Virus record (IMG/VR): IMGVR_UViG_3300035698_007246
Coordinates: 1-64,000 of that record
Length of the DNA stretch: 64,000 bases
Strand: one strand, 5' to 3'
Source of the DNA: a virus
Below the pieces are notes generated by a model that worked only from the letters and a program-made list of their open reading frames with translations, was not told where the DNA came from and did not search any database. Positions 23,793 through 43,699 of this stretch are shown piece by piece (position 1 is the stretch's first letter; every line of letters begins with the position of its first letter). Made by a program: the position numbers and the translations under genes.

Positions 23793-24617
23793 ATGCAAAA
23801 AAAGGCAATCTTATTAGTAATCGACCCACAGAATGATTTTTGTGACAAGGATAAAGGTTCACTCTATGTAAATGGTGCAGACAAAGATATGGAACGTCTC
23901 GCCACAATGGTAAAAACACATGGTAATGAATTAAAACGTATTGATGTCACTCTCGACTCTCACCATACTGTGCATATTGCACATCCTATTTGGTGGGTGA
24001 ATTCTAAAAATGAACCACCTCCTCCATTTACAGTTATTAGTGTTGAAGATGTGGAAAAGGGTACATGGAGAGCATTGAATCCGGGATTCCAACAATGGAG
24101 TTTGGATTATGTAAAATCTCTTCGTGACAACAAACGTTATGTTCTTTGTATCTGGCCCTATCATTGTAGAATCGGTACTCCTGGTGCAAATGTGTATCCT
24201 GAATTTGAAGCTGCATTGAATGAGTGGGAAATGAAATTTAGAATGGTAAACTATGTTCCAAAAGGAAGTTCAATCTTTACAGAACACTATTCTGCACTTC
24301 GTGCCGATGTTGAGTTTACGGGCTTTCAAGGAATTCCTTCCGACCCAACAACTCAATTGAATACTCCATTTGTTGCGACATTCAAAACAGGTCTTGATAT
24401 TCTTATTGGTGGTGAAGCGATTGATTTTTGCGTTGCTAATACAGCAAGAGATATTGCTAATGAATTTTCAGTTGACCAAATCAAACAAATGGTACTTCTT
24501 GAAGACGCTTCAAGTGCAGTAAATGCACCTGGACTCGAACATCTAAAAGACGATTTCGTTAATGAGATGGTCGGTAAAGGTATGAGAATTTCAAAAACAA
24601 CTGAATATTTTAAATAG
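23793..24617 (+). CDS. pncA: nicotinamidase / isochorismatase-family cysteine hydrolase (PncA-like)
   Basis: LLVIDPQNDFC (catalytic Asp region, DFC as in PncA). GEAIDFCVANTARDIA (nucleophile Cys region). Confidence 0.6.
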   Translation: MQKKAILLVIDPQNDFCDKDKGSLYVNGADKDMERLATMVKTHGNELKRIDVTLDSHHTVHIAHPIWWVNSKNEPPPPFTVISVEDVEKGTWRALNPGFQQWSLDYVKSLRDNKRYVLCIWPYHCRIGTPGANVYPEFEAALNEWEMKFRMVNYVPKGSSIFTEHYSALRADVEFTGFQGIPSDPTTQLNTPFVATFKTGLDILIGGEAIDFCVANTARDIANEFSVDQIKQMVLLEDASSAVNAPGLEHLKDDFVNEMVGKGMRISKTTEYFK

Positions 24618-24621
24618 ACAG

Positions 24622-24662
24622 ATGATTTTAGCAGAGGTGTAATCACAATCCCTCTGCTTGTT
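24622..24662 (+). terminator. rho-independent terminator
   Basis: GCAGAGG...CCTCTGC stem followed by TTGTT. Confidence 0.5.
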
Positions 24663-24698
24663 AATAAAAGTTATAAACAATAATTGAAGGAGAATATA

Positions 24699-25439
24699 AT
24701 GGAAGATAATAATTTCGATATGTCAATGTTCACAACACCAAATAATTTCAAATACTCAGCTATTGAGACTGATAGTCTGAAAGCTGATGGTTATACAATC
24801 GTTAATATCCTTGTTGACACCACAGGAAGTGTGTGGGGAATGGAAAAAGATATTGAAGGATGTATTAAAAAAATAGTTGACTCTTGTAGAAAACATCCAA
24901 GAGCTGAACAATTACTTATCAGGGTTGCATACTTTGATGGTGATAATGGTATTCGTGAAGCTCATGGTTTTACATTAATTTCATCTACACCAGTTGATTA
25001 TAAGATTATTATTGGTGGGATGACACCTTTAATTGATGCTACACTTGATTGTGTAGAAACAATTGAAGGACATTCAAAAACACTTGAAGCTCAAGAGTTC
25101 TCTTCAAATGGTGTATACTTTGTAATTACAGATGGTGGGGAAAATGATTCCAGAATAAAAGACCCTACAAAAATCTTAGACACATTGAAAAGAATCCGCA
25201 AGGAAGAAATTTGTGCAACTATCAAAGGATTTTTGATTGGGCTTAATGATTCTGGTGGTACTGATGTTGAATTACAAGATTTCAAAGAAAAAGCTGGATT
25301 TGAAGAGTACATTTCAATTAATAATGTGACTCCAGGTGCATTAGCAAAGCTCGCACAATGGGTAAGTCAGTCAATCAGTTCGACTTCACAAGCTCTTAAT
25401 TCTGGAGGACCAAGTCAATCAATCGATTTTAATTTGTAA
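24699..25439 (+). CDS. vWA-like domain protein (TerY-like, tentative)
   Basis: VDTTGSV possible MIDAS DxSxS-like motif. Alpha/beta pattern. Sits immediately upstream of the PP2C-like and kinase-like genes. Confidence 0.35.
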   Translation: MEDNNFDMSMFTTPNNFKYSAIETDSLKADGYTIVNILVDTTGSVWGMEKDIEGCIKKIVDSCRKHPRAEQLLIRVAYFDGDNGIREAHGFTLISSTPVDYKIIIGGMTPLIDATLDCVETIEGHSKTLEAQEFSSNGVYFVITDGGENDSRIKDPTKILDTLKRIRKEEICATIKGFLIGLNDSGGTDVELQDFKEKAGFEEYISINNVTPGALAKLAQWVSQSISSTSQALNSGGPSQSIDFNL

Positions 25440-25474
25440 TATTCAGTTTAGATTAATTTTTCAAAGGAGAAAGA

Positions 25475-26359
25475 ATGATAATTAATACTGATTCAATATA
25501 TATTAAAGGGCATAACCATAAGGTATGTGAAGATTATAGTATTGATGGTTCAGTACCAACACTCAATGATAGTTTAGGTGATGTTCATTATGCAATTGTG
25601 TGTGATGGATGTTCGGGTTCTGATGGGTATGTTGATGTTGGTGCACGACTTATTGCACATGGGTTAATTAAATTTCTCAGAAATATGGGAAATTCTGTTC
25701 ATTATTATTACAGAGAACCCACTGGGTTTTATGAAAATTTACAATTTCACATGCAACGAGTAATATATAATTCAGCAGAGAATTTTGGGTTATCAAAACT
25801 TTCATTCGTTGCTACAATACAGGCAATAATTGTTATTAAAGATAAATTATTTCATTTCCATTATGGTGATGGTTCAATAATACATTATTGTGATGGTGAT
25901 ATACATAGGCCATATTATACAGACTTCCCTTCAGGTGCACCATACTATTTTGTAGATAGTTTTGAAGGTCGTGATATGGAAAGATATTGTAAACGATTTG
26001 AAATGAATAAAGTAATTCAGGATGGTGTGGAATTTGATGTTCATGATTATGTTTACGAATGGTCAAATTTCTGGAATGTGATTGATTTGAATACAATGGC
26101 TGATGGAAACAATGTGTTTGCTGTTACCAGTGATGGTATAGAAACGTGTTATTACAATGATGATAACGATAATGGTAAACAAGTTGCTGTTGATTTTGAT
26201 GATACTCTTAATGCAGCATTCTGCTTTAAAAACTTCCAAGGTGAATTTGTTAAACGTAGATTCAATAAGTTTTTCAAGGTAATGGAAGATTCAAAAATTA
26301 AACATTATGATGACATCTCAGTTGCTGCAATCAGTATAAAAAAGGAAGGTGATTTATGA
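25475..26359 (+). CDS. PP2C-family Ser/Thr phosphatase-like protein
   Basis: AIVCDGCSGSDGYVDVGARL (PPM motif 1/2-like DG.GG). HYGDGSIIHY and VTSDGIE (later metal-binding Asp motifs). Confidence 0.45.
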   Translation: MIINTDSIYIKGHNHKVCEDYSIDGSVPTLNDSLGDVHYAIVCDGCSGSDGYVDVGARLIAHGLIKFLRNMGNSVHYYYREPTGFYENLQFHMQRVIYNSAENFGLSKLSFVATIQAIIVIKDKLFHFHYGDGSIIHYCDGDIHRPYYTDFPSGAPYYFVDSFEGRDMERYCKRFEMNKVIQDGVEFDVHDYVYEWSNFWNVIDLNTMADGNNVFAVTSDGIETCYYNDDNDNGKQVAVDFDDTLNAAFCFKNFQGEFVKRRFNKFFKVMEDSKIKHYDDISVAAISIKKEGDL

Positions 26360-26385
26360 TTTTAATAATATTGAATTAACTATTG

Positions 26386-26414
26386 ACATTTATTTGGTCA
26401 TAATTTATATTGGT
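26386..26414 (+). promoter_or_regulatory. sigma70-like promoter (TTGACA-N17-TATATT)
   Basis: ACTATTGACATTTATTTGGTCATAATTTATATT. Confidence 0.5.
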
Positions 26415-26436
26415 TTGAAAATGAAAGGATATAAAA

Positions 26437-28134
26437 ATGAAACCGTTTGATGTTATTCTTGATGGTCGAAATATTAGATTAGATTCTAAGTGTTATTTAA
26501 GTCAAGGTGGACAGGGTGTGATATATTTAAAGAATAATTGTATTTTTAAAATATATCATGACCCAAAGTTATTAATTCCAGAGATGAAAATTGATGAGCT
26601 TCAGGTGTTAAGTGATATGAATAATATAATTATTCCGACAAAATCACTTTACAAAGGACATACCCGAGTTGGATTTGTAATGGAATATGTTCATGATACT
26701 GAGTTTTTGTGTAAAATATTTTCTGGTAATTTTAAAACTAATAATAATATCACACCTCAAATGGTTGTTGATATAATAAAATTTCAACAGGATACTGTTC
26801 AGGGTGTTCATGACCGTGGTGTTATCTTCGGTGATTATAACGAAATGAATCAGCTATTGAGTGCTGATTTCAAAATACCTTATCATATTGATATGGATTC
26901 TGTACAAACCAAGAGTTTTAAATGTAATGCAATTATGGAAAGTGTGCGGGATCGTCAGTTACCGTTTGGTGAATTCAATGAAGGTTCTGATTGGTTCAGT
27001 TGGGCCGTGGTGACATTTCAAATGTATTGTGGAATAAATCCGTACAAAGGCACTCATCCAAAATTCAAAAAATCTGAATGGTCAAAACGGATGGATGCAA
27101 ACATCTCTGTGTTTGATAAAGATGTGAATGTTCCTAAGTTTGTTGATTTCAGTGTGATACCAACCAATCATTTGGAATGGTACAAACAGGTATTTATCAA
27201 TGGTGACCGTTCTATTCCCCCGGCACCAACTGGAGTTTCGAATATTAAAGTTATCAAGAAGATTTATGTTGACGATAAGTCAAGTGTTACTGCTAACCTT
27301 CTTTTCAAATATGATGGGAATATACTGGATGTGGTGTATCGTAATGGCACTTACTTTGTTCTTACATCAGATGGTGTGTATTATGATGATAGAAAAAGAA
27401 TAACTTTTGATAATGAAATTGACAATGGTCATCTCTTGTTCACACCGAATAACGATGTTGTGATTGCAACAAAGGTCGGTGATGAATTTAAAATCTTTGA
27501 TGGTCATAAAACTCAAATTTCAAAATTAACAAGTGGAAAATATTATATATTTAATAACTGTATCTATCTTATTGACAAGAGTGGACTTATTCAATACAGC
27601 TTCGAACGTATAGGAAAGATTAAATGTCTTCCAAGAGTTATCTCTAACGTGAGTTATAACTCAGCAAAAATATATGAAGGTGTTGTATTGCAAGACATCT
27701 TCGGAAAGTATTCAGCACTGATTCCATATGAAATTAATATGTGTAAACGTATTGATATCCTTGAGTTGAGTGGATGTAGAATACTTGACGCAAAGAGACT
27801 TGGGCGTTGGATGTTTGTTGTGTATGAAAAGGCAGGGAAATTCTGTTGTCTTAGTTTGTACTTTGATAAAGAATTTAAATCTTATAAAGCGAATGTTGAA
27901 GAGCATGTTGATTTCAAAAACATCAATGCGATGATAAAAGAAAATAACATGGTTGTCTTTAACAAGGATGATAATACTTTGGAACTGTGTTATGATATGA
28001 GTCAAAGTAAAGTCATGGAGAATACACCAGTGTATAATGACTTGGAACTTGTTTCTGGTAAGGCAACTTGTTTTATGAATGGAAAAGAACTGTATTCATT
28101 GGAGGCGAAAAAAAGTAATGGGAACCAGTATTAG
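26437..28134 (+). CDS. protein-kinase-like domain protein (N-terminal ~220 aa) with large C-terminal domain
   Basis: Gly-rich SQGGQGVIY, then K in KIY, hinge VMEYV. Catalytic-loop-like HDRGVIFGDYNEMNQLL and DMD (DFG-like). Confidence 0.4.
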   Translation: MKPFDVILDGRNIRLDSKCYLSQGGQGVIYLKNNCIFKIYHDPKLLIPEMKIDELQVLSDMNNIIIPTKSLYKGHTRVGFVMEYVHDTEFLCKIFSGNFKTNNNITPQMVVDIIKFQQDTVQGVHDRGVIFGDYNEMNQLLSADFKIPYHIDMDSVQTKSFKCNAIMESVRDRQLPFGEFNEGSDWFSWAVVTFQMYCGINPYKGTHPKFKKSEWSKRMDANISVFDKDVNVPKFVDFSVIPTNHLEWYKQVFINGDRSIPPAPTGVSNIKVIKKIYVDDKSSVTANLLFKYDGNILDVVYRNGTYFVLTSDGVYYDDRKRITFDNEIDNGHLLFTPNNDVVIATKVGDEFKIFDGHKTQISKLTSGKYYIFNNCIYLIDKSGLIQYSFERIGKIKCLPRVISNVSYNSAKIYEGVVLQDIFGKYSALIPYEINMCKRIDILELSGCRILDAKRLGRWMFVVYEKAGKFCCLSLYFDKEFKSYKANVEEHVDFKNINAMIKENNMVVFNKDDNTLELCYDMSQSKVMENTPVYNDLELVSGKATCFMNGKELYSLEAKKSNGNQY

Positions 28135-28192
28135 TGAATGTGTATGTGTGATAACACGAGAAGAGTTGTTGAAGAAACTAATAAAGGGAGTG

Positions 28193-28692
28193 ATGAAATG
28201 ATAAAAGTAATACTGATGATTGGATTACCCGGTAGTGGTAAATCAACAGTGGCTGAGAAAATGTTACTTAGTTCAAAGAAGACAGTGATAGTTAGTCGTG
28301 ACTCTATAAGAGAAATGGTTTGTGGTAAATATAAGAACTACAAATTTACTGACATCAAAGAAGATATGGTAAAGTCAATGGCAACTGCTTGTATTGAAGT
28401 CGCTATTGAACGTGGCTTGAGTGTGATAGTGGATGAAACAAACTTTACAAAGAAGTCCAGAACATACTGGATGAATATGATATCATGCATTTGCGAACGC
28501 AAGGGTGTCAATGTGAAGTACTGTGGTGTGTGGGTTGATACACCAAAGGGTGAGTGTATCAAAAGACGCAAAGCCGACCCTAAAGGAACCAATGATAATT
28601 GGGCTGCCATCATAGGGAATATGTTGAAGTATTGGGATGAACCTGAAGCTGATGAATTTGACAAATTGGAAATTATAACAGACGAGGTATAA
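28193..28692 (+). CDS. polynucleotide 5'-kinase (T4 Pnk kinase-domain-like), no phosphatase domain
   Basis: P-loop ILMIGLPGSGKST, then SRDSIRE and VDETNFTKKSRTYW. Collinear with T4 Pnk kinase domain (ILTIGCPGSGKST...NRDDYRQ...ISDTNLNPERR). Confidence 0.55.
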
Positions 28693-28695
28693 GAG

Positions 28696-29139
28696 ATGTC
28701 TGAACATTTAGAAAAAACTGTAGAAGACGCAATTGTGTTGGCGACACATGCTCTTACTGGACAAAAGGATAAGGTAGGGTTACCAGTAATCCTTCATTCT
28801 ATGAGAGTCATGCTTGCATGTAACACACCAAAACAAATGATGGTTGCTGCTTTACATGATGTGGTAGAAGATTCAACGATTAGTGTTGAAGACCTTCGTA
28901 AAGATGGATATCCAAAAGATGTTTGTGACGCTGTAGACGCAATGAGCAGACGTAATGATGAAACATGGGAAGTATTTATTGAACGTTGTTCTAAGAATTC
29001 ATTGGGAGCTACTGTGAAGCGAATTGACATCTCTGATAACAATAGTCCAATCAGACAGATTGGGTTACCATTGGAGAAACGTGAAAAACTCAGAGCTAAG
29101 TATCAGAAAGCAATCAAATTTTTGGATGGTGTTGAATGA
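28696..29139 (+). CDS. HD-domain phosphohydrolase
   Basis: H...(ILHSMRV)...ALHDVVED...D pattern of HD superfamily. Coupled to the Pnk-like gene. Confidence 0.45.
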   Translation: MSEHLEKTVEDAIVLATHALTGQKDKVGLPVILHSMRVMLACNTPKQMMVAALHDVVEDSTISVEDLRKDGYPKDVCDAVDAMSRRNDETWEVFIERCSKNSLGATVKRIDISDNNSPIRQIGLPLEKREKLRAKYQKAIKFLDGVE

Positions 29140-29486
29140 AAATATTAATACTTGATGATAGTGTATCAAGACAACGCCAATTCAAAAGAAAATATATTGG
29201 GCATGAAGTGACACAGGTTTATACTGCACTTGCATGTGTTCATGCATTACAAACAGATATGTATGACGCAATATTTCTTGACCATGACTTAGGTGGACAA
29301 CAAATGGTTTCATCAGGTCCTGGAACTGGATTTGAAGTTGCTGAGTACTTAAGTAAGAATACAAATCGAGCACCGGAGATTATATTTTTACATTCATTGA
29401 ATACTCCGGGTACTGAAAATATGAAAAAAATACTGGCTACGGCTGGTTTAAATGGAGTTAAAGAACCTTTTTTATGGAAAGAGTGA
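29136..29486 (+). CDS. stand-alone response-regulator receiver (CheY-like) domain protein
   Basis: MKILILDDS (acidic pocket). AIFLDHDLGG (phospho-acceptor Asp position). About 116 aa. Confidence 0.4.
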   Translation: MKILILDDSVSRQRQFKRKYIGHEVTQVYTALACVHALQTDMYDAIFLDHDLGGQQMVSSGPGTGFEVAEYLSKNTNRAPEIIFLHSLNTPGTENMKKILATAGLNGVKEPFLWKE

Positions 29487-29493
29487 GGGAAAT

Positions 29494-29895
29494 ATGTTAA
29501 GTGGAATTTTAATTGTTTGTGGTTTGTGGTTTTTATTTTGGTTTAGTAATTATCTTCATACAAAATTACCTTCAAAATATATGGACGTTTGTTTTCTTGT
29601 GATGTGGGTATTGTTTATAGCTGGTTTGATGTTTACATTTGCAGTACCTTTGAATTATTATACTGCAATTGATAGAAAAATTGAAATGGAAACAACTCAG
29701 AAAGTGTTTGATGAATCAAGAGAACGATTTAAGAATAATGAAAGTCCTGCTGTGTGTTTAGAAGCTGTTGGTATCACTGAGAAGATTGCTGAATTGAATT
29801 CGAAATTAGCAAAATCTCAGTACTATGCAACTGAATCATTCTGGAGATTTTTCATGAATGTTGATGTGGTGATGTCAACAAAACCTATTAATTGA
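29494..29895 (+). CDS. membrane protein
   Basis: Two N-terminal TM helices. Start chosen after GAGGGAAAT RBS. Confidence 0.4.
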   Translation: MLSGILIVCGLWFLFWFSNYLHTKLPSKYMDVCFLVMWVLFIAGLMFTFAVPLNYYTAIDRKIEMETTQKVFDESRERFKNNESPAVCLEAVGITEKIAELNSKLAKSQYYATESFWRFFMNVDVVMSTKPIN

Positions 29896-30012
29896 GGATA
29901 TGATGATTTTTGAATTTGGTTTGACGTTGTGTCAGGTGTGGGTATTTTATATAGCATTACCTGTATTGGTTATATTTGGAACATTATATGTTCTTAGGAA
30001 AAGGAAAACAAA

Positions 30013-30828
30013 ATGAAAATTAATTTTTTAGGTGCTGGTTCTGCATTTACTATGAAGGGATTCCAAACGAATTTCCTCATACAAGAAAACGGAAAGAATT
30101 TATTGATTGACGCTGGTGGAGATATACGATTCTCCTTGGCTAAACAGGGATTATCATATAAAGATATTGATGCTCTGTATTTAAGTCATGAACACGGTGA
30201 CCATTGTGGTGGGGTAGAAACTCTTGCGTCCTGTACATACTTTGACCCAACTGTCAAGGATACTATTCAACTGTTTGGAAATACCAAACTGTTGAGAAAT
30301 ATGTGGAAGAGTACACTATCTGGTGGTTTGAAATCAATTCAAGGTAAGGTAATGGGGTTGGATGATTACTTTGATGTTAATATGATTCCACCTAACAAAC
30401 AGTTTATTTGGGAAGATATAAAATTTGAAATTGTACAATCCGTTCATGTTATGAATGGTCGTGAGATTGTACCATCATATGGGTTAATGATGACTACACC
30501 GGAAAAGGTGAAGGTATATTTCACAGGTGATACCCAATTCAATCCTAATCAGATTATAGATTTCTATGAGGAAGCTGATTTTATTATTCAGGATTGTGAA
30601 ACATATCCTTTTAAGTCTGGTGTTCATGCTCATGTTGAAGAGTTAAAGACATTACCAAAACACATAAAAGAAAAGATGTTGCTTGTTCATATCAATGATA
30701 ATGTCCTTGATGATAATGGTGTTGTAAGTGCTGATTTTATGAACAAGGTCAGTGACTTTTATAGCGTTGCTTGTACAGGATTTGAAGTTGAAATGGCTAT
30801 TATAAAAAAAATAAAAGATAAGTCTTGA
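30013..30828 (+). CDS. metallo-beta-lactamase-fold hydrolase (possible phosphodiesterase)
   Basis: SHEHGDHCGG (HxHxDH). Later H and D residues in MBL order. Confidence 0.5.
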   Translation: MKINFLGAGSAFTMKGFQTNFLIQENGKNLLIDAGGDIRFSLAKQGLSYKDIDALYLSHEHGDHCGGVETLASCTYFDPTVKDTIQLFGNTKLLRNMWKSTLSGGLKSIQGKVMGLDDYFDVNMIPPNKQFIWEDIKFEIVQSVHVMNGREIVPSYGLMMTTPEKVKVYFTGDTQFNPNQIIDFYEEADFIIQDCETYPFKSGVHAHVEELKTLPKHIKEKMLLVHINDNVLDDNGVVSADFMNKVSDFYSVACTGFEVEMAIIKKIKDKS

Positions 30829-30853
30829 CATCACATTTCCCATTAGCTATATT
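30825..30853 (+). promoter_or_regulatory. sigma70-like promoter (TTGACA-N17-TATATT)
   Basis: GTCTTGACATCACATTTCCCATTAGCTATATT. The -35 box overlaps the upstream stop codon. Confidence 0.55.
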
Positions 30854-30918
30854 GGGTTCGTAATAAAAAAGTTACAATTAAGTGACAAATTTTTAAAATT
30901 TTTTGATGGAGGTCGTTT

Positions 30919-31338
30919 ATGACAAATAAAACAATAGTAAGTAATGTATTTCTCGGTGGAACATGTGCAACCAGTCATTGGAGAGAGGACCTAATTCCAA
31001 TGCTTACTAAATCATATTTCAATCCTGTTGTTGATGATTGGACATCGGAATGTCAAGCTGAAGAAATCCGGCAACGTGAAACAGCAAACTTTTGTTTGTT
31101 TGTAATCACTCCTAATCTTGAAGGTTTCTTTTCAATTGCAGAAGTAATTGATGATAGCAACAAACATCCAGAGAAAACAATCTTCTGTGTTCTTCAATCT
31201 GATAGTAAACATGGTGAAGCAACTGAATTCAATGTAAAACAATTAAAATCATTACAAGCTGTTGGAGAGATGGTTCTACGTAATGGTGGTATATGGTGTA
31301 AGAATTTAGAAGAAGTTGCAGCTTGTTTAAATACATAA
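30919..31338 (+). CDS. hypothetical protein
   Basis: 139-aa ORF after GGAGG RBS. No clear motif. Confidence 0.4.
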   Translation: MTNKTIVSNVFLGGTCATSHWREDLIPMLTKSYFNPVVDDWTSECQAEEIRQRETANFCLFVITPNLEGFFSIAEVIDDSNKHPEKTIFCVLQSDSKHGEATEFNVKQLKSLQAVGEMVLRNGGIWCKNLEEVAACLNT

Positions 31339-31400
31339 AATTTTAGGGGAGAAATCCCCAACACCGGAAGGTAAGATGGAAAAAAAGAAAGAGGATTATT

Positions 31401-31715
31401 GTGCGAGAACTACTTGATGAATTGAATTTGCTTGAAGCTGAAGCAAATGAAGACAAGTTGATATGTGATGGGTGTAATGATGTACATCCAGAACTATTTA
31501 CATTGACGGTTAAAGAGAAAACTATTCTTATATGTGAACAGTGTAAAGAAAGTTTATCAGGAATAATAGATAATGAAAACAAAGAAACTGTTCATCAAAT
31601 AGCTTCTGATATGTTTAATGATATTTTTAATTCAAGAATACAAAATAACAGTTCTGGTGATGGTGGTTCTGGATATGATACTGCCCGGTACACTGAAGAC
31701 CATATGGATTGTTAG
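31401..31715 (+). CDS. zinc-ribbon protein
   Basis: CDGCNDVHP...CEQCKE cysteine pairs. GTG start after AAGAGGA RBS. Confidence 0.35.
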   Translation: MRELLDELNLLEAEANEDKLICDGCNDVHPELFTLTVKEKTILICEQCKESLSGIIDNENKETVHQIASDMFNDIFNSRIQNNSSGDGGSGYDTARYTEDHMDC

Positions 31716-31799
31716 GAGAATAAATGATTGAAGATTTAACAACAGATGATTTAGTTGTAATTAGAGATACACCTGTAAAAATAAAAAGAAAACGGAATA

Positions 31800-32426: not shown

Positions 32427-32486
32427 AAAGGTATTTTGGTGGTTGGAATTGGTATAATTGTAAGAATGTAATTAAGGAGAAAAGAA

Positions 32487-32822: not shown

Positions 32823-32837
32823 AAAGAGTGGATTGAT

Positions 32838-34451: not shown

Positions 34452-34455
34452 TTCA

Positions 34456-34480
34456 AAGGGGAGCAATCCCCTATTTTAAT
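34456..34480 (+). terminator. rho-independent terminator
   Basis: AGGGGAGCAATCCCCT followed by ATTTT. Confidence 0.5.
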
Positions 34481-34528
34481 TGGGAGGTGCAATATGTCAA
34501 ATTTTTTAAAAACATTGGAACCATTATT

Positions 34529-34995: not shown

Positions 34996-34999
34996 AGAT

Positions 35000-35209
35000 A
35001 TGAGTAAATTAAATGAAAATGAATTTAAAGAAGTAACTAAAACATTTATAAACAGATTGAGTAATGAAATGTCAACCGCAGGGTGTAATGATTTGGATGA
35101 TGATGAATTTCCTACAACTGTTTGTGAGAAGTTTGATTCTGATTTTGAGTTATTATACGAGTGGAGTAGTATGATAGTTAAACAAAAGGAATTAAAAGAT
35201 GAAAAATGA
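35000..35209 (+). CDS. small acidic protein
   Basis: 69-aa ORF. Confidence 0.35.
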   Translation: MSKLNENEFKEVTKTFINRLSNEMSTAGCNDLDDDEFPTTVCEKFDSDFELLYEWSSMIVKQKELKDEK

Positions 35210-36362: not shown

Positions 36363-36989
36363 ATGAGACCAATTGTTTGGGTAGTTGATACTCAAAAAGA
36401 TTTTATTGATGAAGACGGAAAATTATCTGTGCCTGGTGCAGTTGATATAAGACAAAATATTCTTTCTACACTTTTGACAGCAGAAAAGTTTGATGTTTCT
36501 ATTTATGGAAGCGTGGACGCACATGAAAAAAATGATGTGGAATTTTTAGATTATCCAGTTCATTGTGTGATTGATACAGATGGTCAAAAGAATATACCTG
36601 AAAGTATTATCAGTCACCCGGATAACGTATACTATGTCCCAAACAATGGGCAGGGAGTTGACATGTCTTCGTTTGAAGGGGCACGTCAAGTGTACTTTGA
36701 GAAGCAGTGTGTCAATATATGGGATAAGTGTAAAGGACAGCCCGACAATATTCAAACGCTTCTCCGTATGACTGACATCACTGATGTGTATGTTGTTGGT
36801 GTGGCTACAGAACTATGTGTTCTTGAAGCTGTATTGGGTTTTCTTGCTCGTGACTATAACGTATTCGTTGTTGAAGACGCAACAAAAGGATTAAGTGTTG
36901 ACGGTGAAGTACAAGCTAAAGATAAAATGGCGTCTTTTGGAGCTGAGTTTATCACAACAAAACAATTAGAATGTATGTTTGACAAATAG
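36363..36989 (+). CDS. isochorismatase-family cysteine hydrolase (second copy)
   Basis: VWVVDTQKDFIDEDG (DxQxDF). VVGVATELCVLEA (nucleophile Cys). Confidence 0.5.
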   Translation: MRPIVWVVDTQKDFIDEDGKLSVPGAVDIRQNILSTLLTAEKFDVSIYGSVDAHEKNDVEFLDYPVHCVIDTDGQKNIPESIISHPDNVYYVPNNGQGVDMSSFEGARQVYFEKQCVNIWDKCKGQPDNIQTLLRMTDITDVYVVGVATELCVLEAVLGFLARDYNVFVVEDATKGLSVDGEVQAKDKMASFGAEFITTKQLECMFDK

Positions 36990-37015: not shown

Positions 37016-37864
37016 ATGGATTATAAAAAAGTATATGAAAATATTCAAAATAATTTTAGACAGTATCTATTTAAGTCTGGATTGAAAGCCGTAGTCATTG
37101 GTGAGAGTGGTGGTCTTGATAGTGGTGCGATTAGTGCACTTGCTCGTCCGGTATGCGATGAGCTTGGTGTGAAACTTATTGGTAGATACATTGGAATTGA
37201 AACCAATGGTGATGACGAGTTAGAACGTGCTAATGCTATTGGTAAAGCCTTTTGTCATGATTATAAAGTAATTGATATGTCCCACATCTCTGTAGATTTG
37301 CGTACTTTCGTAGAAGAGATGGAAGGAATGGAAACTGATTTTAAAGCAATACCAAGAAAAATACGTAATGGTAATACTAAAGCCAGACTTCGTATGATTT
37401 ATCTTTACAATCTTGCTCAGTTACATGGTGGAATGGTTCTCAGTACAGATAATTTGACAGAGTTTATGTTAGGGTTTTGGACATTACATGGTGATGTTGG
37501 GGATTATGGGATGATTCAATATCTTAAGAAGACTGATGTGTTTGGTCTTGTTAAGTGGATTGCATTAAATGTCTGTGGTGGCACAGGTAGTGTTTGTCGC
37601 AATGTTTTACTTGCATGTTATGACGCAATACCAAAAGATGGTCTTGGTATTAGTAAATCTGATGTGGAGCAATTAGGTGCAGAAGATTATTATGAAGTTG
37701 ATGACGTTCTATATGGTTTTATTGACGCTGTGATTGATGATGACCTTGGTACGGCAGAGAAGTTGAAACCACATCCTGTTGTCCAAAGACATTTTGCGTC
37801 TCAATTCAAAAGGAGTAATCCATATAATATTCCAGAGGGTGAGCTTACACGGGGGGCAACATAA
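37016..37864 (+). CDS. nadE: NH3-dependent NAD+ synthetase (NadE-like)
   Basis: AVVIGESGGLDSGAISALA PP-loop in the NadE position. Length 282 aa. Confidence 0.55.
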   Translation: MDYKKVYENIQNNFRQYLFKSGLKAVVIGESGGLDSGAISALARPVCDELGVKLIGRYIGIETNGDDELERANAIGKAFCHDYKVIDMSHISVDLRTFVEEMEGMETDFKAIPRKIRNGNTKARLRMIYLYNLAQLHGGMVLSTDNLTEFMLGFWTLHGDVGDYGMIQYLKKTDVFGLVKWIALNVCGGTGSVCRNVLLACYDAIPKDGLGISKSDVEQLGAEDYYEVDDVLYGFIDAVIDDDLGTAEKLKPHPVVQRHFASQFKRSNPYNIPEGELTRGAT

Positions 37865-38034
37865 TGGGGAGAATTGGATTATACGGTGGGTCTTCAACAA
37901 TGATTCGTGAAGCAGTCTGGAACATGGAAACGAAGGGACTCCCACCAAAATTCTTTGATTGGTGTGATGTTAATGTGTTTACTCAAATTTATAACGAAAA
38001 ATTATATACACCTTGTAGTTAGGAAGTGGAAGAG

Positions 38035-39537
38035 ATGTCTGATTTGAAACAAGAAAAAAATGATGTGAGTGCAGTTGAAGCTGAAGCGGTTACAATGACT
38101 GAAGAAAAGATTGTAGTACCGAAGAAGATGTTTAAAAGAGACAGTCTTTTTAAACATCTCTATGACTCATATGGAAACATTTCAAATGTGTTGGGTCTTA
38201 TCGACATGTTATTTAAAAATGGTGAGAATGAAAATGGAGTTTATAAAGCGGTAAAACGATACACACCGTTTGCGTTATTCGGATATGACCTCGGTGGTCG
38301 TATAAAAGATTTTTACAAAAACCAAAACAGAGATGTTTCCGATGATAGGAGCGACAGAATTAGAGCCATTTTGGAAATTGAGCAAACTAATAATTACTGG
38401 ACGCATGATGATGATGGATGTAAATTAAATTCAGAAATTCTTGAATGGTTACTTAAGTCTCCTTTAGTACACAAATTTAAAATATTAAAATATGTTGAGC
38501 TTAATGAAAACAAAGTGATGAGCTATGTTGGTTCTGTAGAGAACTTTTCTGAGATATCAATGGTGATTGAATACAAAGAAGTTAAGATTTTAATAAATTG
38601 CAATGTGTCAGGCGGCAATGATAGTATCAAAAGAAAATTTTGTTCGTTTAATGGTTTATGTGTCGAACGTTCAGTAAAGTTTAATAGATTTGAATTTTTG
38701 AAATCAATCTATCTTGAATACCTTGAGACTCTCAATTTTAGAGAGAACGTATTATCATATGACCATGATATTAAAAAACGTTCTCGTATTAAAGATTGTG
38801 ATTTTGATTTTCAAACATTGAATTTCAAGAAATTGAAGAGTGAAATAATCACCACTCTTGATAATGGGGAACGTAGAGGTTATATTCTTGCTGGGAATCC
38901 CGGAACAGGTAAGACTTCTGTTCTGTTGAGATTGGAAAAGGAATTAACAAAATACCCAATTCTGTATGTGGCTCCTCATAATTTACAGAGTGACAACACA
39001 ATTAGTATTCTTTTCTCGTTTCTAAAAACAATCAGTCCTTGTCTCGTGGTTTTGGAAGACATGGATAGTTATGCACTGAATGATAAGAATGAACGTACTG
39101 GTGCGTTGTTATCTTATATTGATAACAGTAAGGACCCTATCGAGGTAGTGTTCATTGCAACTATTAATGACAGTTGTAAGTTGAATTATTCTATTGTACG
39201 TCCGGGACGTTTTGATGAAATAATTGATGTACAAGAGCCGAAGTTCAATGGAGAAATTTATAATGTGATGAAGACACATTACAATAAACAGAAATTGAAA
39301 AATAAACATTATGCTGATAAAGAGTTTATAAAACAAAGTAAAATTTCTTGGATGACATTCTGGAGACTAAAGAAATATAAATTCACTCAAGCTGAGTATT
39401 GTGAAATAGCTCAGAAAATAATGTTACAAAAATGGAATTTCAATAATAAAACTTTTATTAACAGTCGTGATAAGTTATTGGATTCTCGTAAATCAATTAA
39501 GAAATATAAAAGAGAAAATAACAAAGGTAGAGGTTAA
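38035..39537 (+). CDS. AAA+ ATPase (classic AAA clade)
   Basis: Walker A GNPGTGKT, Walker B VVLEDMD, second-region-of-homology RPGRFDE. Confidence 0.55.
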   Translation: MSDLKQEKNDVSAVEAEAVTMTEEKIVVPKKMFKRDSLFKHLYDSYGNISNVLGLIDMLFKNGENENGVYKAVKRYTPFALFGYDLGGRIKDFYKNQNRDVSDDRSDRIRAILEIEQTNNYWTHDDDGCKLNSEILEWLLKSPLVHKFKILKYVELNENKVMSYVGSVENFSEISMVIEYKEVKILINCNVSGGNDSIKRKFCSFNGLCVERSVKFNRFEFLKSIYLEYLETLNFRENVLSYDHDIKKRSRIKDCDFDFQTLNFKKLKSEIITTLDNGERRGYILAGNPGTGKTSVLLRLEKELTKYPILYVAPHNLQSDNTISILFSFLKTISPCLVVLEDMDSYALNDKNERTGALLSYIDNSKDPIEVVFIATINDSCKLNYSIVRPGRFDEIIDVQEPKFNGEIYNVMKTHYNKQKLKNKHYADKEFIKQSKISWMTFWRLKKYKFTQAEYCEIAQKIMLQKWNFNNKTFINSRDKLLDSRKSIKKYKRENNKGRG

Positions 39538-39832
39538 TGGATGTTAAACAAGTAATTGTTAGGTGACTTGTGATAATATTGATGTTATGTTAGAAAAATC
39601 AGTGTATGGTATTCTAATTAAGTTAATATTATTTTTTAAACAGAATTCATTTTTTATTTTATCATTATGTTGATGTAATTATTTTCAAAGTTTGGGAGGT
39701 TGTGATGTATAAAGGAATTGCTGGTGCTATTAAAATATTGTTTATTATTTGTTGTATAAGGAAATTAGTTGAGATAGCAATATGGTTATTTAACCATGTA
39801 AGTATAAATTGGAAATAAAGGAGTAACAAACA

Positions 39833-40312: not shown

Positions 40313-40314
40313 TT

Positions 40315-41936: not shown

Positions 41937-41964
41937 TTCAAAAATCTTTTTCAAAGGGGGATGT

Positions 41965-42477
41965 ATGAATAATAGTTGGTTAATGTATTGGATATTAATA
42001 CTGGTTATAATGTTTGGTGCATTTGATTCTGATGGTGCAACATTTTCAGGAAACAATTATCCAGACTCACTTAAATTGTATGAACCAATTAAAAGTGATT
42101 ATCAAAATAAGCATAGACCGTTCATTGATGTGGACTTCTATCTTAAGGGTAAAGTAATTGAGTCAAAAGAGACAACAATTTCTGATGATTATGTGCCTGT
42201 GACATACTATTGGTTGTTTGTTAATACAAAAAAGGGAATTGCTAATTGTAAAGTTGTTGATAGTATTTATAACAAATATGATGTTGGTAATAAAATTGGT
42301 GTGGATACAGCAAAACCTAAAGCCGAAATAAATCAGGGAAATTCTGACAATACACAACCACCACAAGATGATGATGTCCGTGGTTATGGTATCATAGTAA
42401 CTATATTTATTGCGTTTATAAGTGCTGTGTTATTATTTGGAATAATTACATTTTTTATATCAATGTTGGAGGCGTAA
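41965..42477 (+). CDS. membrane protein (N- and C-terminal TM helices)
   Basis: GGGGGA RBS. Hydrophobic termini. Confidence 0.4.
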   Translation: MNNSWLMYWILILVIMFGAFDSDGATFSGNNYPDSLKLYEPIKSDYQNKHRPFIDVDFYLKGKVIESKETTISDDYVPVTYYWLFVNTKKGIANCKVVDSIYNKYDVGNKIGVDTAKPKAEINQGNSDNTQPPQDDDVRGYGIIVTIFIAFISAVLLFGIITFFISMLEA

Positions 42478-42478
42478 T

Positions 42479-43699
42479 ATGAAATTATTTAGGAAACATT
42501 GTATTGAATCATTAGCGGATACAGATTTATATAAATTAACTATGTTGTATGTATTCTGGAAAAAATATAGAGACCATAAAGGTACATATAAATACACTTG
42601 TCGTAGTGACCATAATTTGATACCTTATAAATCAGAAATATTTAAAGAAATTCATCACCTATCTACATTAAAATTTCAAAAAACAGAATTGGAATACATT
42701 AAAAATCTTGGTTTATTTAATAATGATTTTATGGAATATTTAAAGACATTTCAATTGAATATTAAAGATTTAAATATATTTGAACATAATGGTAAATTAC
42801 AAATAGAAGTAACAGGAAATGTTATAAATTCTATGATGTATGAAGTATACATTTTAGCAATCGTATCTGAAGTATATAATAGAAATGTGTATGACGGTAT
42901 AGATATAACTGAAGGTGAGAAAAGATTAAAGACTAAAGTTGAAACTATACATAGTTCTAATATTGTTGGAATATATGCAAAATATGTTGATATGGGAACT
43001 CGTAGACGATTTTCTCATTTGTGGCAAGAATATACTATTAAATATCAATTAGATTACATTAAAAATCTTGGTTTATTTAATAATGATTTTATTGGCACAA
43101 GTAATGTATATTTTGCTATGAAATTTGGGTGTAAATGTTACGGAAGTCAGGCTCATGAAATTCAAAGTTTTTATCAATCCATGTGTCATGTTAAAGATTC
43201 ATTAAAAAAATGTTTTGATGATTGGATTGATGTGTATGGAGCTACGTTAGGAACTGTATTGTCTGATACATTAACAGTTGATGTGTTTTTAAAAAATTTT
43301 GATAAAAAATATGCAATATTATTTAATTCTGTCAGAGAAGATTCTGCTAATAATTTGGAAGAGTTTGTGGACAAAATAATAAATCATTATAAAAAATTGG
43401 ATATTGTCCCAACAACAAAATCTATAATATTTAGTAATAGTTTAAATTTTAATAAAGCAATACATATTGCAACCTATTGTAATGGTAAAATAGGATGTTC
43501 GTTTGGAATAGGGACAAATCTTACTAATGATATGGGTGATGATGTTACTCCAGTACAAAGTGTAATGAAACTTATTTTTGCAGGTAAAGAATTTAATGAT
43601 ATGAGACCTGTTTGTAAACTTTCGGATATATCAGAAAAAAGTTGTGGTGGCTCTCAACAACAAATTGATTATGTTAAGCATGAACTTGGATTAATTTAG
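42479..43699 (+). CDS. pncB: type II phosphoribosyltransferase, nicotinate/nicotinamide PRTase family (PncB-like)
   Basis: N-terminal LADTDLYKLTM (compare PncB LDTDAYKLHM), GTRRRFS, GTSNVYFA...GSQAHE in PncB order. 406 aa. Contains a 37-nt perfect internal direct repeat. Confidence 0.55.
   Translation: MKLFRKHCIESLADTDLYKLTMLYVFWKKYRDHKGTYKYTCRSDHNLIPYKSEIFKEIHHLSTLKFQKTELEYIKNLGLFNNDFMEYLKTFQLNIKDLNIFEHNGKLQIEVTGNVINSMMYEVYILAIVSEVYNRNVYDGIDITEGEKRLKTKVETIHSSNIVGIYAKYVDMGTRRRFSHLWQEYTIKYQLDYIKNLGLFNNDFIGTSNVYFAMKFGCKCYGSQAHEIQSFYQSMCHVKDSLKKCFDDWIDVYGATLGTVLSDTLTVDVFLKNFDKKYAILFNSVREDSANNLEEFVDKIINHYKKLDIVPTTKSIIFSNSLNFNKAIHIATYCNGKIGCSFGIGTNLTNDMGDDVTPVQSVMKLIFAGKEFNDMRPVCKLSDISEKSCGGSQQQIDYVKHELGLI

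What the first reader, a model, noticed from the sequence alone, without database searches (positions are those of the whole stretch)
23793..43699. Phage-encoded Preiss-Handler NAD+ re-synthesis set (PncA, PncB-like PRTase, NadE, second isochorismatase-family hydrolase)
Within 20 kb the phage carries three of the four steps from nicotinamide to NAD+: nicotinamidase (23793-24617), a nicotinate/nicotinamide phosphoribosyltransferase (42479-43699) and NAD synthetase (37016-37864). There is also a second cysteine hydrolase (36363-36989) and an NAD-dependent ligase (4410-6302). The NaMN adenylyltransferase step (NadD) was not identified and may be host-supplied or hidden among the unknown ORFs. Phage NAD+ reconstitution pathways described so far use different enzymes (ADPR-PP synthetase/Namat or NadV/NatV). 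A deamidated-route variant would be a distinct solution to NAD-depleting immunity (TIR/SIR2/SEFIR effectors of Thoeris, CBASS, DSR and others). The enzyme assignments rest on short motifs only. The link to NAD-depleting immunity is inference from the gene combination.
Basis: partly seen in the sequence, partly recalled or inferred. Interest (0 to 1): 0.8.

Follow-up and report, generated by a model that had tools for sequence, protein, structure and literature searches.

The report
Phage nicotinamide-to-NAD salvage genes, nadD deleted
An uncultured large phage carries genes for rebuilding NAD+ from nicotinamide by the deamidated (Preiss-Handler) route, a gene set already reported in jumbo phages; here one step (NadD) has been deleted, and the first enzyme belongs to a widespread, undescribed four-gene cassette with a vWA protein, a phosphatase and a kinase.

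Summary
42479-43699 is PncB and passes NCBIfam's curated cut-offs. 37016-37864 is an NH3-dependent NadE. Both isochorismatase-family ORFs (23793-24617 and 36363-36989) keep the nicotinamidase Asp/Lys/Cys triad and Asp/His/His metal site, and their AlphaFold models match solved nicotinamidases best.

NadD is not hidden. A 52-codon ORF (37864-38022) is an in-frame remnant of nadD after a deletion of about 459 nt. Two syntenic relatives carry intact nadD in that slot. This phage would therefore need host NadD.

pncB-nadD-nadE clusters in jumbo phages were described from annotation by Li et al. 2024 (PMC11662467). No experiment links them to counter-defence, and the experimentally tested routes NARP1-3 use other enzymes.

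One result is not in the literature I could search. The 274-aa nicotinamidase-like gene is the first gene of a conserved cassette, PncA-like, vWA, PP2C, Ser/Thr kinase (23793-28134). The cassette occurs in many large phages and several bacterial phyla. It is often interleaved with pncB, nadE and nadD, or flanked by pncB and NrtR.

The counter-defence role remains inference. Interest is moderate.

The parts
23793..24617 (+). PncA-like nicotinamidase-family cysteine hydrolase (274 aa); first gene of the four-gene cassette
   Evidence: The family has 770 hits. D11/K157/C213 and D55/H57/H124 are invariant. AF2 pLDDT is 95.4, and the top Foldseek PDB hits are nicotinamidases 2wta (2e-14), 2h0r and 3r2j. 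Pfam PF00857 is below threshold.
24684..25439 (+). vWA (TerY-like) protein with a MIDAS motif and a conserved Ser-rich C-terminal tail
   Evidence: There is no Pfam hit. The family alignment conserves D45xS/T47xS49, T114 and D150, plus S228/S230/S232/S235. It lies immediately downstream of the PncA-like gene in 67 of 76 viral loci and 43 of 46 bacterial loci.
25475..26359 (+). PP2C-family protein phosphatase
   Evidence: PF13672 25.2 bits against a cut-off of 24. The metal-binding D20, D44-G45, D132-G133, D220-G221 and D279-D280 are conserved across 132 sequences.
26437..28134 (+). Protein kinase (N-terminal kinase domain plus about 330 aa of C-terminal region with no assigned domain)
   Evidence: PF00069 24.7 bits, below the 31.7-bit cut-off. 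Catalytic K38, E54, D133, N138 and D152 are conserved across 136 sequences.
36363..36989 (+). Second nicotinamidase-like isochorismatase-family hydrolase (208 aa), directly upstream of nadE
   Evidence: PF00857 71 bits. D9/K114/C152 and D52/H54/H67 are invariant. AF2 pLDDT is 93.7, and the top PDB hits are nicotinamidases 3o93 (1.6e-14), 5zn8 and 1ilw. The pairing with nadE is conserved in L008 and L010.
37016..37864 (+). NH3-dependent NAD synthetase NadE
   Evidence: PF02540 108.8 bits; TIGR00552 108 against 63.65. SGGLDS PP-loop. Best PDB matches are 2e18, 3p52 and 3fiu.
37864..38022 (+). nadD remnant: a 52-codon in-frame fusion of the NadD N-terminus (about 10 aa) to its C-terminus (about 42 aa); the HxGH motif and Rossmann core are deleted
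   Evidence: Intact NadD (216 and 212 aa, PF01467) occupies this slot in the syntenic relatives L008 and L010. tblastn aligns L008 NadD residues 166-216 to 37858-38010 (E=0.003). The flanking DNA aligns to the 5' and 3' ends of L010 nadD, implying a deletion of about 459 nt. A NadD HMM hits this ORF at E=2.5e-9.
38026..39537 (+). AAA+ ATPase conserved inside the nadE-nadD...pncB cluster of this phage lineage; its role is unknown
   Evidence: PF00004 50.2 bits. It occupies the same position in L008 and L010.
42479..43699 (+). Nicotinate phosphoribosyltransferase PncB, carrying a genome-specific in-frame 46-nt internal repeat
   Evidence: NF003704 383 against 379; TIGR01514 342 against 269.55. 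2im5 E=1e-56. The repeat is at 42687-42732 and 43047-43092, and the second copy is absent from relatives.

Best explanation
The window comes from an uncultured large, probably jumbo, phage. Its lineage carries a Preiss-Handler nicotinamide-to-NAD+ salvage module.

The proposed steps are as follows. A nicotinamidase deamidates nicotinamide to nicotinate; there are two candidates, the 274-aa cassette-linked PncA-like protein and the 208-aa protein next to nadE. PncB, coupled to ATP, converts nicotinate and PRPP to NaMN. NadD adenylates NaMN to NaAD. NH3-dependent NadE amidates NaAD to NAD+.

In this genome nadD has been destroyed by an in-frame deletion of about 153 codons. The adenylylation step must therefore come from the host's NadD, and the phage contributes only the entry steps and the last step.

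The 274-aa nicotinamidase-like gene is the first gene of a conserved cassette with a vWA (MIDAS) protein, a PP2C phosphatase and a Ser/Thr kinase. I infer that this triad is a phosphorylation switch controlling the nicotinamide entry step.

Shown by sequence: the family, residue and fold assignments; the nadD deletion; the synteny; and the cassette linkage.

Inferred: enzymatic activity; dependence on host NadD; the regulatory role of the triad; and any benefit against NAD-depleting defence.
For: PncB and NadE pass curated cut-offs and align to solved enzymes.

Both isochorismatase-family proteins keep the triad and metal ligands and match nicotinamidases best by fold.

The syntenic relatives L008 (218-kb contig) and L010 have Iso-NadE-NadD-AAA...PncB with intact NadD. 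The window holds a 52-codon remnant there.

Cassette census anchored on the PncA-like gene: the full vWA+PP2C+kinase set lies downstream in 53 of 76 viral loci and 31 of 46 bacterial loci.

Reciprocal census anchored on the vWA family: 61 of 64 loci have the PncA-like gene, 59 have PP2C and 56 have the kinase. Among 15 loci with only generic vWA matches, none has any of the three.

Interleaved operons of the form PncA-like, vWA, PncB, NadE, PP2C, NadD, kinase occur in L106, L109, L138, L164 and L204.

In bacteria the cassette is flanked by pncB and an NrtR-type Nudix regulator.

The kinase and PP2C catalytic residues are conserved.

Phage origin: the 725-aa ORF matches phrog_2426 at 1.8e-121 and has homologs in 504 phage records, and an Apyc1-like gene is present.
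Against: No activity has been measured for any of these proteins.

Both nicotinamidase-like proteins score far below NCBIfam's PncA equivalog cut-off (25.7 and 43.4 bits against 174).

The pathway is genetically incomplete here.

pncB carries an unusual internal repeat just before the GTSN motif that relatives lack, and this could impair it.

The nadD deletion rests on a single assembly: L001 is 100% identical to the window.

Only 64 kb plus 8.6 kb upstream were examined, so another adenylyltransferase could lie elsewhere in the genome.

NadE could be a Francisella-type NaMN amidase; sequence does not decide this.

The host is unknown.
Confidence: 0.7

Rival explanations
1. The gene set is a dedicated counter-defence. 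It re-synthesises NAD+ from the nicotinamide released by TIR, SIR2 or SEFIR NADases, which would make it functionally a further NARP by the deamidated route.
For: The window is dense in NAD/ADP-ribose and anti-signalling genes: NADAR, Macro, cpYpsA SLOG, an Apyc1-like gene and Nuc_deoxyri_tr2. Experimentally proven phage NAD reconstitution pathways exist, so the selective pressure is real. Nicotinamide is a product of these NADases.
Against: No experiment supports it. The route needs PRPP plus three ATP-consuming steps. It is incomplete here, since nadD is deleted. Most bacteria already encode NadD and NadE. Li et al. interpret such clusters as general NAD supply. Nothing in the sequence separates this reading from metabolic boosting.
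Confidence: 0.35
2. The genes are auxiliary metabolic genes. They raise the NAD+ supply for the phage's own NAD-consuming enzymes (NAD-dependent ligase, RNA repair, ADP-ribose chemistry) independently of host immunity.
For: A LigA-like ligase is present, along with an RNA ligase, Thg1, RlaP and a cREC RNA-repair-like set. Li et al. 2024 propose this for NAD-jumbo phages. Bacterial copies of the cassette sit in an NrtR-type NAD regulon, which is a housekeeping context.
Against: This reading is not mutually exclusive with counter-defence. It does not explain why the nicotinamidase needs a kinase/phosphatase/vWA switch.
Confidence: 0.4
3. The module is decaying in this genome and is no longer functional as a pathway. 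With nadD deleted and pncB altered by an intragenic duplication, the remaining genes are relics or have other roles.
For: nadD is an in-frame deletion remnant. The pncB internal repeat is unique to this genome. The Nudix gene present in L008 is absent here.
Against: pncB, nadE and both nicotinamidase-like ORFs are intact, full-length and keep all catalytic residues. PncB still passes the equivalog cut-off. Host NadD is near-universal in bacteria (established knowledge), so losing nadD need not break the flux. Of the viral loci with pncB and nadE, 6 of 66 also lack nadD within 10 kb.
Confidence: 0.15
4. The PncA-like, vWA, PP2C, kinase cassette is a conflict system in its own right, in the manner of TerY-P defence modules, with the amidase acting on a substrate other than nicotinamide. 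Its proximity to NAD genes would be secondary.
For: TerY-P-like triads act as stand-alone defence systems and associate with restriction-like systems (PMC10542128). The PncA-like protein has an insert of about 60 aa relative to canonical PncA (TM-score normalised to the query is about 0.62) and scores poorly against PncA HMMs.
Against: None of the PncA-like, vWA or PP2C proteins hits a PADLOC model. The nicotinamidase-specific metal site and the WPxHC motif are invariant. The cassette is recurrently interleaved with pncB, nadE and nadD, and flanked by NrtR.
Confidence: 0.12

Closest known systems
Preiss-Handler NAD+ gene clusters of 'NAD-jumbo phages' (Li et al., Microbiome 2024, PMC11662467)
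   Same: These are phage-encoded pncB, nadD and nadE clustered together (for example Kuafu_71), with phage pncA also mentioned. They occur in large uncultured phages that also carry many NAD-consuming genes.
   Different: That work is annotation-level and reports complete pathways. Here nadD is an internal-deletion remnant, there are two nicotinamidase-like genes, and one of them is embedded in a vWA/PP2C/kinase cassette that the paper does not describe.
NARP1 (Adps+Namat), NARP2 (NadV+NMNAT) and NARP3 (PnuC+NadR) phage NAD+ reconstitution pathways
   Same: The proposed purpose is the same: rebuilding NAD+ during infection. NARP1 and NARP2 also start from nicotinamide.
   Different: The enzymes and intermediates differ entirely. 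NARP1-3 use amidated routes or ADPR-PP; this set uses the deamidated route through nicotinate, NaMN and NaAD. NARP1-3 have been shown experimentally to counter defence, and this set has not. No Adps, Namat, NadV, NadM, NadR or PnuC homolog was found in the window.
Bacterial PncA-PncB-NadD-NadE salvage under NrtR control
   Same: The chemistry and protein families are the same. Bacterial homologs of the cassette lie between pncB and an NrtR-type Nudix regulator.
   Different: The genes are phage-borne. The nicotinamidases are divergent, far below the PncA equivalog cut-off. nadD has been lost, and a signalling triad is attached.
TerY-P triad (vWA + PP2C + Ser/Thr kinase; Anantharaman et al. 2012; defence version in Gao et al. 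2020, both as cited in PMC10542128)
   Same: The three-component architecture is the same: a MIDAS-containing vWA protein, a PP2C phosphatase and a protein kinase, encoded consecutively and predicted to form a phosphorylation switch.
   Different: Here the triad is linked to a nicotinamidase-like enzyme and to NAD salvage genes, not to tellurite resistance or restriction systems. The vWA and PP2C proteins do not match PADLOC models. No zinc ribbon or OB fold was identified on the kinase.

Membership tests
Nicotinate phosphoribosyltransferase PncB (42479-43699) | NAPRTase N-terminal and catalytic domains, scoring above the curated family cut-offs | tested here: met
   PF17767 104 bits and PF04095 148 bits; NF003704 383.2 against 379; TIGR01514 342.3 against 269.55.
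Nicotinate phosphoribosyltransferase PncB (42479-43699) | Conserved autophosphorylated His that couples ATP hydrolysis (the 'HE' motif), and the GTSN motif | tested here: met
   GSQAHE aligns with GTHPHE of 2im5, and GTSN is present. The role of this His comes from established knowledge of Salmonella and yeast NAPRTase.
Nicotinate phosphoribosyltransferase PncB (42479-43699) | Catalysis of nicotinate + PRPP to NaMN, with preference for nicotinate over nicotinamide | not testable with these tools
   This needs an enzyme assay. The internal repeat before GTSN is a caveat.
NH3-dependent NAD synthetase NadE (37016-37864) | PP-loop SGGxDS ATP pyrophosphatase domain scoring above the cut-off, with no glutaminase domain | tested here: met
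   PF02540 108.8 bits; TIGR00552 108 against 63.65; SGGLDS motif; 282 aa with no CN_hydrolase domain.
NH3-dependent NAD synthetase NadE (37016-37864) | Substrate is NaAD rather than NaMN (the latter in Francisella-type NMN synthetase) | tested here: inconclusive
   PDB matches 2e18, 3p52 and 3fiu (Francisella) score similarly, at 60, 53 and 52 bits.
Nicotinamidase PncA (23793-24617) | Asp-Lys-Cys catalytic triad and Asp/His/His metal site in the isochorismatase fold | tested here: met
   D11/K157/C213 and D55/H57/H124 are invariant in 36 sequences. The top fold matches are nicotinamidases.
Nicotinamidase PncA (23793-24617) | Score above the curated PncA equivalog cut-off (NF008623) | tested here: not met
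   25.7 bits against 174; Pfam PF00857 22.7 against 27. It is a divergent subfamily with an insert of about 60 aa.
Nicotinamidase PncA (36363-36989) | Asp-Lys-Cys catalytic triad and Asp/His/His metal site in the isochorismatase fold | tested here: met
   D9/K114/C152 and D52/H54/H67 are invariant in 12 sequences. The top fold matches are S. pneumoniae and B. subtilis nicotinamidases.
Nicotinamidase PncA (36363-36989) | Score above the curated PncA equivalog cut-off (NF008623) | tested here: not met
   43.4 bits against 174, although PF00857 gives 71 bits against 27.
Nicotinamidase PncA (both ORFs) | Hydrolysis of nicotinamide to nicotinate and NH3 | not testable with these tools
   This needs an enzyme assay.
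NaMN adenylyltransferase NadD (37864-38022) | (H/T)xGH motif and Rossmann-type nucleotidyltransferase core of about 190-215 aa | tested here: not met
   Only 52 codons remain. No (H/T)xGH motif is present here or in any frame of the window. The relatives' NadD proteins are 212-216 aa.
Complete phage Preiss-Handler pathway ('NAD-jumbo phage' sensu Li et al. 2024) | All steps (pncB, nadD, nadE) encoded by the phage | tested here: not met
   nadD is deleted within the window. The rest of the genome was not available.
NARP1 / NARP2 / NARP3 | Presence of Adps+Namat, or NadV+NMNAT, or PnuC+NadR | tested here: not met
   Pfam scans of nearly all ORFs of 100 aa or more found none. No HIGH-motif nucleotidyltransferase is present.
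TerY-P triad | Consecutive genes for a MIDAS-containing vWA protein, a PP2C phosphatase and a Ser/Thr kinase | tested here: met
   The MIDAS motif DxSxS...T...D is conserved. The PP2C and kinase catalytic residues are conserved. The gene order is conserved in more than 100 loci.
TerY-P triad | Sequence membership in the described TerY-P defence families (PADLOC models) | tested here: not met
   The vWA and PP2C proteins have no PADLOC hits. The kinase matches only PD-T4-6, weakly, at 9e-6.

The most novel reading that the evidence does not exclude
The conserved cassette PncA-like, vWA, PP2C, Ser/Thr kinase is an undescribed phosphorylation-gated nicotinamidase module. It controls entry of nicotinamide into Preiss-Handler NAD+ salvage and is shared between several bacterial phyla, where it lies in NrtR-type NAD regulons, and many large phages. 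In phages it lets NAD+ re-synthesis be switched on in response to an infection or NAD-depletion cue. Together with pncB, nadD and nadE it would form a regulated, deamidated-route NAD+ reconstitution pathway that counters NADase immunity.
Probability: 0.3. Interest if true: 0.75.

Novelty: new variant of a known kind. Interest (0 to 1): 0.5.

Why it matters
NAD+ depletion is a major bacterial anti-phage strategy. Three phage NAD+ reconstitution pathways have been proven, and none uses the deamidated route. Preiss-Handler genes in jumbo phages have so far only been catalogued.

This locus and its relatives give concrete constructs to test: relatives with intact nadD against this natural nadD-deletion variant. 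They also reveal that the nicotinamidase step is genetically tied to a kinase/phosphatase/vWA triad in more than 100 phage and bacterial loci. That points to an unrecognised regulatory layer on NAD salvage.

If the triad proves to gate nicotinamidase activity, it would be a new control point in NAD homeostasis and in phage-host conflict. If it does not, the locus is one more, partly degraded, example of a known class of phage auxiliary metabolic genes.

Tried and rejected
1. I looked for a hidden NadD, NadM or NadR. Pfam scans of nearly all ORFs of 100 aa or more and a six-frame (H/T)xGH and ISSTxxR motif scan found none. The idea that NadD is hidden among the unknown ORFs is rejected, and the deletion remnant explains its absence.

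2. I considered whether 41965-42477, immediately upstream of pncB, could be NadD. It is a predicted membrane protein with no nucleotidyltransferase motif, and it is homologous to a conserved unknown ORF in L008. Rejected.

3. I considered a YcaC-type or other non-nicotinamidase hydrolase for the two isochorismatase-family ORFs. This is rejected as the best reading, because the metal ligands and the WPxHC motif are conserved and nicotinamidases rank first by fold.

4. I tried to identify the phage by DNA similarity and found no megablast match in 50,697 phage records. PncB gave no IMG/VR match.

5. I tried to extend the window. The 3' end protein is not on record. The 5' end extends 8.6 kb (L009) with no NAD genes.

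6. I tested whether the ENA contigs are independent evidence for the deletion. They are 100% identical to the window, so they are not.

7. I tried to decide NadE substrate specificity from its PDB neighbours. The result is inconclusive.

8. A profile of the vWA family against PDB sequences gave no hit.

9. PADLOC gave no hit for the cassette.

10. There are no tRNAs in the window.

11. Literature searches for a described link between the TerY-P triad and nicotinamidase or Preiss-Handler genes, and for experimental tests of phage nicotinamidases, found nothing.

Full report
OBSERVATION.

The window has about 32% G+C. Nearly all ORFs lie on the + strand and are tightly packed.

- ORF 42479-43699 (406 aa) is a nicotinate phosphoribosyltransferase. 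It has both NAPRTase Pfam domains and scores above NCBIfam's curated cut-offs: NF003704 383.2 bits against 379, and TIGR01514 342.3 against 269.55. It aligns end to end with solved NAPRTases (2im5, E=1e-56), and the histidine of the 'QAHE' motif is retained.
- ORF 37016-37864 (282 aa) is an NH3-dependent NAD synthetase. It scores 108 bits against TIGR00552's 63.65, has an SGGLDS PP-loop, and has no glutaminase domain.
- ORF 36363-36989 (208 aa) is a clear isochorismatase-family protein (PF00857, 71 bits). Its best NCBIfam and PDB sequence matches are nicotinamidases.
- ORF 23793-24617 (274 aa) gives only a sub-threshold Pfam hit at its N-terminus. It nevertheless belongs to a large, well-conserved family: 770 hits at 50-85% identity, which some sources call 'nicotinamidase-related amidase'.

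In a 36-sequence alignment of the 274-aa family, the nicotinamidase triad (D11, K157, C213) and the metal ligands (D55, H57, H124) are invariant. The 208-aa family likewise keeps D9, K114 and C152 and D52, H54 and H67. AlphaFold2 models of both are confident, with pLDDT of 95.4 and 93.7. Foldseek against the PDB ranks characterised nicotinamidases first for both. For the 274-aa protein these are A. baumannii PncA, yeast Pnc1 and Leishmania PnC1. For the 208-aa protein they are the S. pneumoniae, B. subtilis and P. horikoshii enzymes.

The ligase ORF (4395-6302) is a divergent LigA-like protein with only weak matches.

WHERE NadD WENT.

No ORF of 100 aa or more in the window matches the cytidylyltransferase-like family. 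No (H/T)xGH motif occurs in a plausible context in any of the six frames.

Two diverged but syntenic relatives settle the question.

- L008 is part of a 218,578-bp metagenomic contig. Its order is Thg1, isochorismatase, NadE, NadD (216 aa, PF01467), AAA, a small ORF, NUDIX, then further on PncB and UvrD.
- L010 and L011 are closer relatives, at about 71-75% nucleotide identity. Their order is isochorismatase, NadE, NadD (212 aa), AAA, then PncB, an 84-aa ORF, DUF6794, two unannotated ORFs, CoaE and UvrD.

In the window, the slot between nadE and the AAA gene holds only a 52-codon ORF (37864-38022). Its first ten residues, MGRIGLYGGS, match the NadD N-terminus (MKERIGIYGGS in L010). The remainder, SSTMIREAVWNMETKGLPPKFFDWCDVNVFTQIYNEKLY, matches the NadD C-terminus (SSTMIRNAVRDMHKDGLPPDFFKWCDPYVFAIIYNEGLY).

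At the DNA level, window 37784-37894 aligns to the 5' end of L010 nadD (72% identity, E=1e-13). Window 37890-38008 aligns to its 3' end (69%, E=6.5e-10). This implies an in-frame deletion of about 459 nt, with a 5-nt overlap between the two alignments at the junction. tblastn with L008 NadD (E=0.003) and a 23-sequence NadD HMM (E=2.5e-9) independently hit this ORF.

The nucleotide-binding motif and the Rossmann core are gone, so the remnant cannot be an adenylyltransferase.

There are two caveats. The only other copies of this sequence (L001, L009) are 100% identical to the window, so they come from the same assembly. And only 64 kb plus 8.6 kb upstream of what is probably a genome of more than 200 kb could be examined.

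IS IT A PHAGE?

No structural genes lie in the window, but several lines point to a phage.

- The 725-aa ORF (50814-52991) matches phrog_2426 at 1.8e-121. It has full-length homologs in 504 phage records, including PBS1/AR9 jumbo phages and Ackermannviridae.
- An Apyc1-like anti-Pycsar gene passes its Pfam cut-off.
- The relatives sit on contigs of up to 218 kb made of short co-directional ORFs.
- Members of the 274-aa family are on at least 108 IMG/VR contigs, many of 200-480 kb.

The host is unknown.

THE CASSETTE.

Following the 274-aa family into other contigs showed that it is the first gene of a conserved four-gene unit: the PncA-like gene, a protein of about 250 aa, a PP2C phosphatase, and a protein kinase of about 560 aa. 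In the window this unit spans 23793-28134.

The protein of about 250 aa has no Pfam hit. Its family nevertheless conserves a complete MIDAS motif (D45-x-S/T47-x-S49, T114, D150), so it is a vWA protein. It also has a conserved Ser-rich C-terminal tail. The kinase family conserves K38, E54, D133, N138 and D152. The PP2C family conserves its metal-binding Asp/Gly motifs. Both are therefore predicted to be active enzymes.

I ran two censuses of gene neighbourhoods.

- Anchored on the PncA-like gene (80 bacterial and 80 viral loci): all three partners lie immediately downstream in 53 of 76 viral loci and 31 of 46 bacterial loci that had enough flank.
- Anchored on the vWA family in IMG/VR: of 64 strong matches, 61 have the PncA-like gene, 59 have PP2C and 56 have the kinase. 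None of 15 loci with only generic vWA matches has any of the three.

The cassette is tied to Preiss-Handler genes.

- pncB lies within 10 kb in 29 of 66 viral loci, and pncB+nadE+nadD together in 11 of 66.
- In several phage contigs the genes are interleaved as PncA-like, vWA, PncB, NadE, PP2C, NadD, kinase (L106, L109, L138, L164, L204).
- In bacteria (Acidobacteriota, Armatimonadota, Desulfobacterales, Spirochaetota and others; at least 534 species-representative genomes) the cassette is flanked by pncB, sometimes nadE, and a Nudix protein with an NrtR winged-helix domain.

The architecture is that of a TerY-P triad. That triad is described as a predicted phosphorylation switch, and in another form as a stand-alone defence system (PMC10542128). 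However, the vWA and PP2C proteins here match no PADLOC model. I found no paper linking such a triad to nicotinamidase or to NAD salvage.

MECHANISM.

The best-supported reading is that this phage lineage carries a deamidated nicotinamide-to-NAD+ salvage module. A nicotinamidase converts nicotinamide to nicotinate. PncB converts nicotinate to NaMN. NadD converts NaMN to NaAD. NadE converts NaAD to NAD+. These steps follow the established Preiss-Handler pathway.

This genome has lost the NadD step and must rely on the host enzyme. From established knowledge, NadD is near-universal and essential in bacteria.

The family assignments, the residue conservation, the synteny and the deletion are shown by sequence. 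Activity, flux and the use of host NadD are inferred.

The vWA/PP2C/kinase triad most plausibly gates the nicotinamidase step, with the Ser-rich tail of the vWA protein as a candidate phospho-acceptor. This rests on gene linkage only.

Why there are two nicotinamidase-like genes is unexplained. The 208-aa type is confined to this lineage and is always directly upstream of nadE. The ammonia it would release is exactly what an NH3-dependent NadE consumes, but any functional link is speculation.

Whether NadE prefers NaAD or NaMN, as the Francisella-type enzyme does, cannot be decided from sequence.

COMPARISON WITH WHAT IS KNOWN.

NARP1 (Adps+Namat) and NARP2 (NadV+NMNAT) were shown experimentally by Osterman et al. 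That paper does not mention PncA, PncB or NadE. NARP3 is PnuC+NadR. The Aravind-lab surveys of phage NAD systems cover only NadV, NadM and NadR.

Li et al. (Microbiome 2024, PMC11662467) reported that 174 of 668 gut jumbo phages encode complete salvage or Preiss-Handler pathways. They describe a pncB-nadD-nadE cluster in Kuafu_71 and mention phage pncA. A phage-encoded Preiss-Handler set is therefore a known kind at annotation level.

No paper in the searchable library tests one experimentally or ties it to defence evasion.

What this analysis adds is threefold: the natural nadD-deletion variant, the duplicated nicotinamidase step, and the cassette linkage.

VERDICT.

The enzyme calls are right, the novelty is overstated, the pathway is incomplete here, and the counter-defence role is untested.

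I rate it a new variant of a known kind, with moderate interest (0.5). That interest comes mainly from the undescribed and statistically robust coupling of the nicotinamidase to a kinase/phosphatase/vWA triad, and from the ready-made comparison between relatives with and without nadD.

Noticed in passing
window 42687-42732 and 43047-43092 (inside pncB): There is an in-frame 46-nt direct repeat, 44 of 46 identical and 360 nt apart, that encodes YIKNLGLFNNDF twice. The second copy sits just before the GTSN motif and is absent from the PncB proteins of four relatives, so it is an intragenic ectopic duplication unique to this genome. Its effect on activity is unknown.
   Followed up: partly
window 30013-30828: This is an Apyc1-like metallo-beta-lactamase-fold protein (PF23023, 102.7 bits against a cut-off of 50). 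It is a candidate anti-Pycsar cyclic-nucleotide phosphodiesterase.
   Followed up: no
window 10279-23756 and 28138-35942: There is a dense block of ADP-ribose-processing and RNA-repair-like genes: RlaP nucleotidyltransferase (10279-11223), NADAR (16900-17391), cpYpsA SLOG (18107-18607), RNA ligase (18604-19650), Macro (22091-22537), metallophosphoesterase (22914-23756), AAA_33 P-loop kinase (28138-28692), cREC_REC (29136-29486), Nuc_deoxyri_tr2 (30919-31338) and Thg1-like (35199-35942). NADAR, cpYpsA and the metallophosphoesterase are also upstream of the cassette in relative L002.
   Followed up: no
window 12636-13568: This phage-encoded patatin-like phospholipase matches a PADLOC model labelled 'Effector / Phospholipase' (PDLC00758, E=1.2e-37). 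Patatin-like phospholipases are known as defence-system effectors, so finding one in a phage is unexpected.
   Followed up: no
window 38026-39537: This AAA+ ATPase (503 aa, with about 270 aa of N-terminal region of unknown function) is conserved between nadD and pncB in all three members of this phage lineage (window, L008, L010). Its role in or beside the NAD cluster is unknown.
   Followed up: partly
window 48211-49371: A protein with a ribosomal L7/L12 C-terminal domain (48211-48630) and a YqeY-like protein (48877-49371) are encoded by the phage.
   Followed up: no
window 32838-33470: This is a QueC-like PP-loop ATPase (SGGLDS motif and a C-terminal CxxCxxC cluster) with only a weak QueC Pfam match. 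It is conserved in the same place in the 30-kb ENA contig.
   Followed up: no
window 44664-45335: This CoaE-like P-loop kinase just passes the dephospho-CoA kinase equivalog cut-off (TIGR00152, 66.7 against 65.55). It is conserved next to the UvrD-like helicase in relative L010.
   Followed up: no
L008 13874-14416 compared with window 39538-39832: The more distant relative L008 has a NUDIX gene after the AAA ATPase. The window has no match to it and has a 295-bp non-coding gap at that place. The closer relative L010 also lacks the NUDIX gene.
   Followed up: partly
window 50814-52991: This 725-aa protein (phrog_2426, E=1.8e-121) is conserved across 504 phage records from PBS1/AR9 to Ackermannviridae. 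It is annotated in AR9 as a vWA-domain protein. Its function is unknown.
   Followed up: partly
window 60723-61367: This 214-aa protein has a sigma-70 region 2 match (PF04542, 27 bits against 24). It is a possible phage sigma factor.
   Followed up: no
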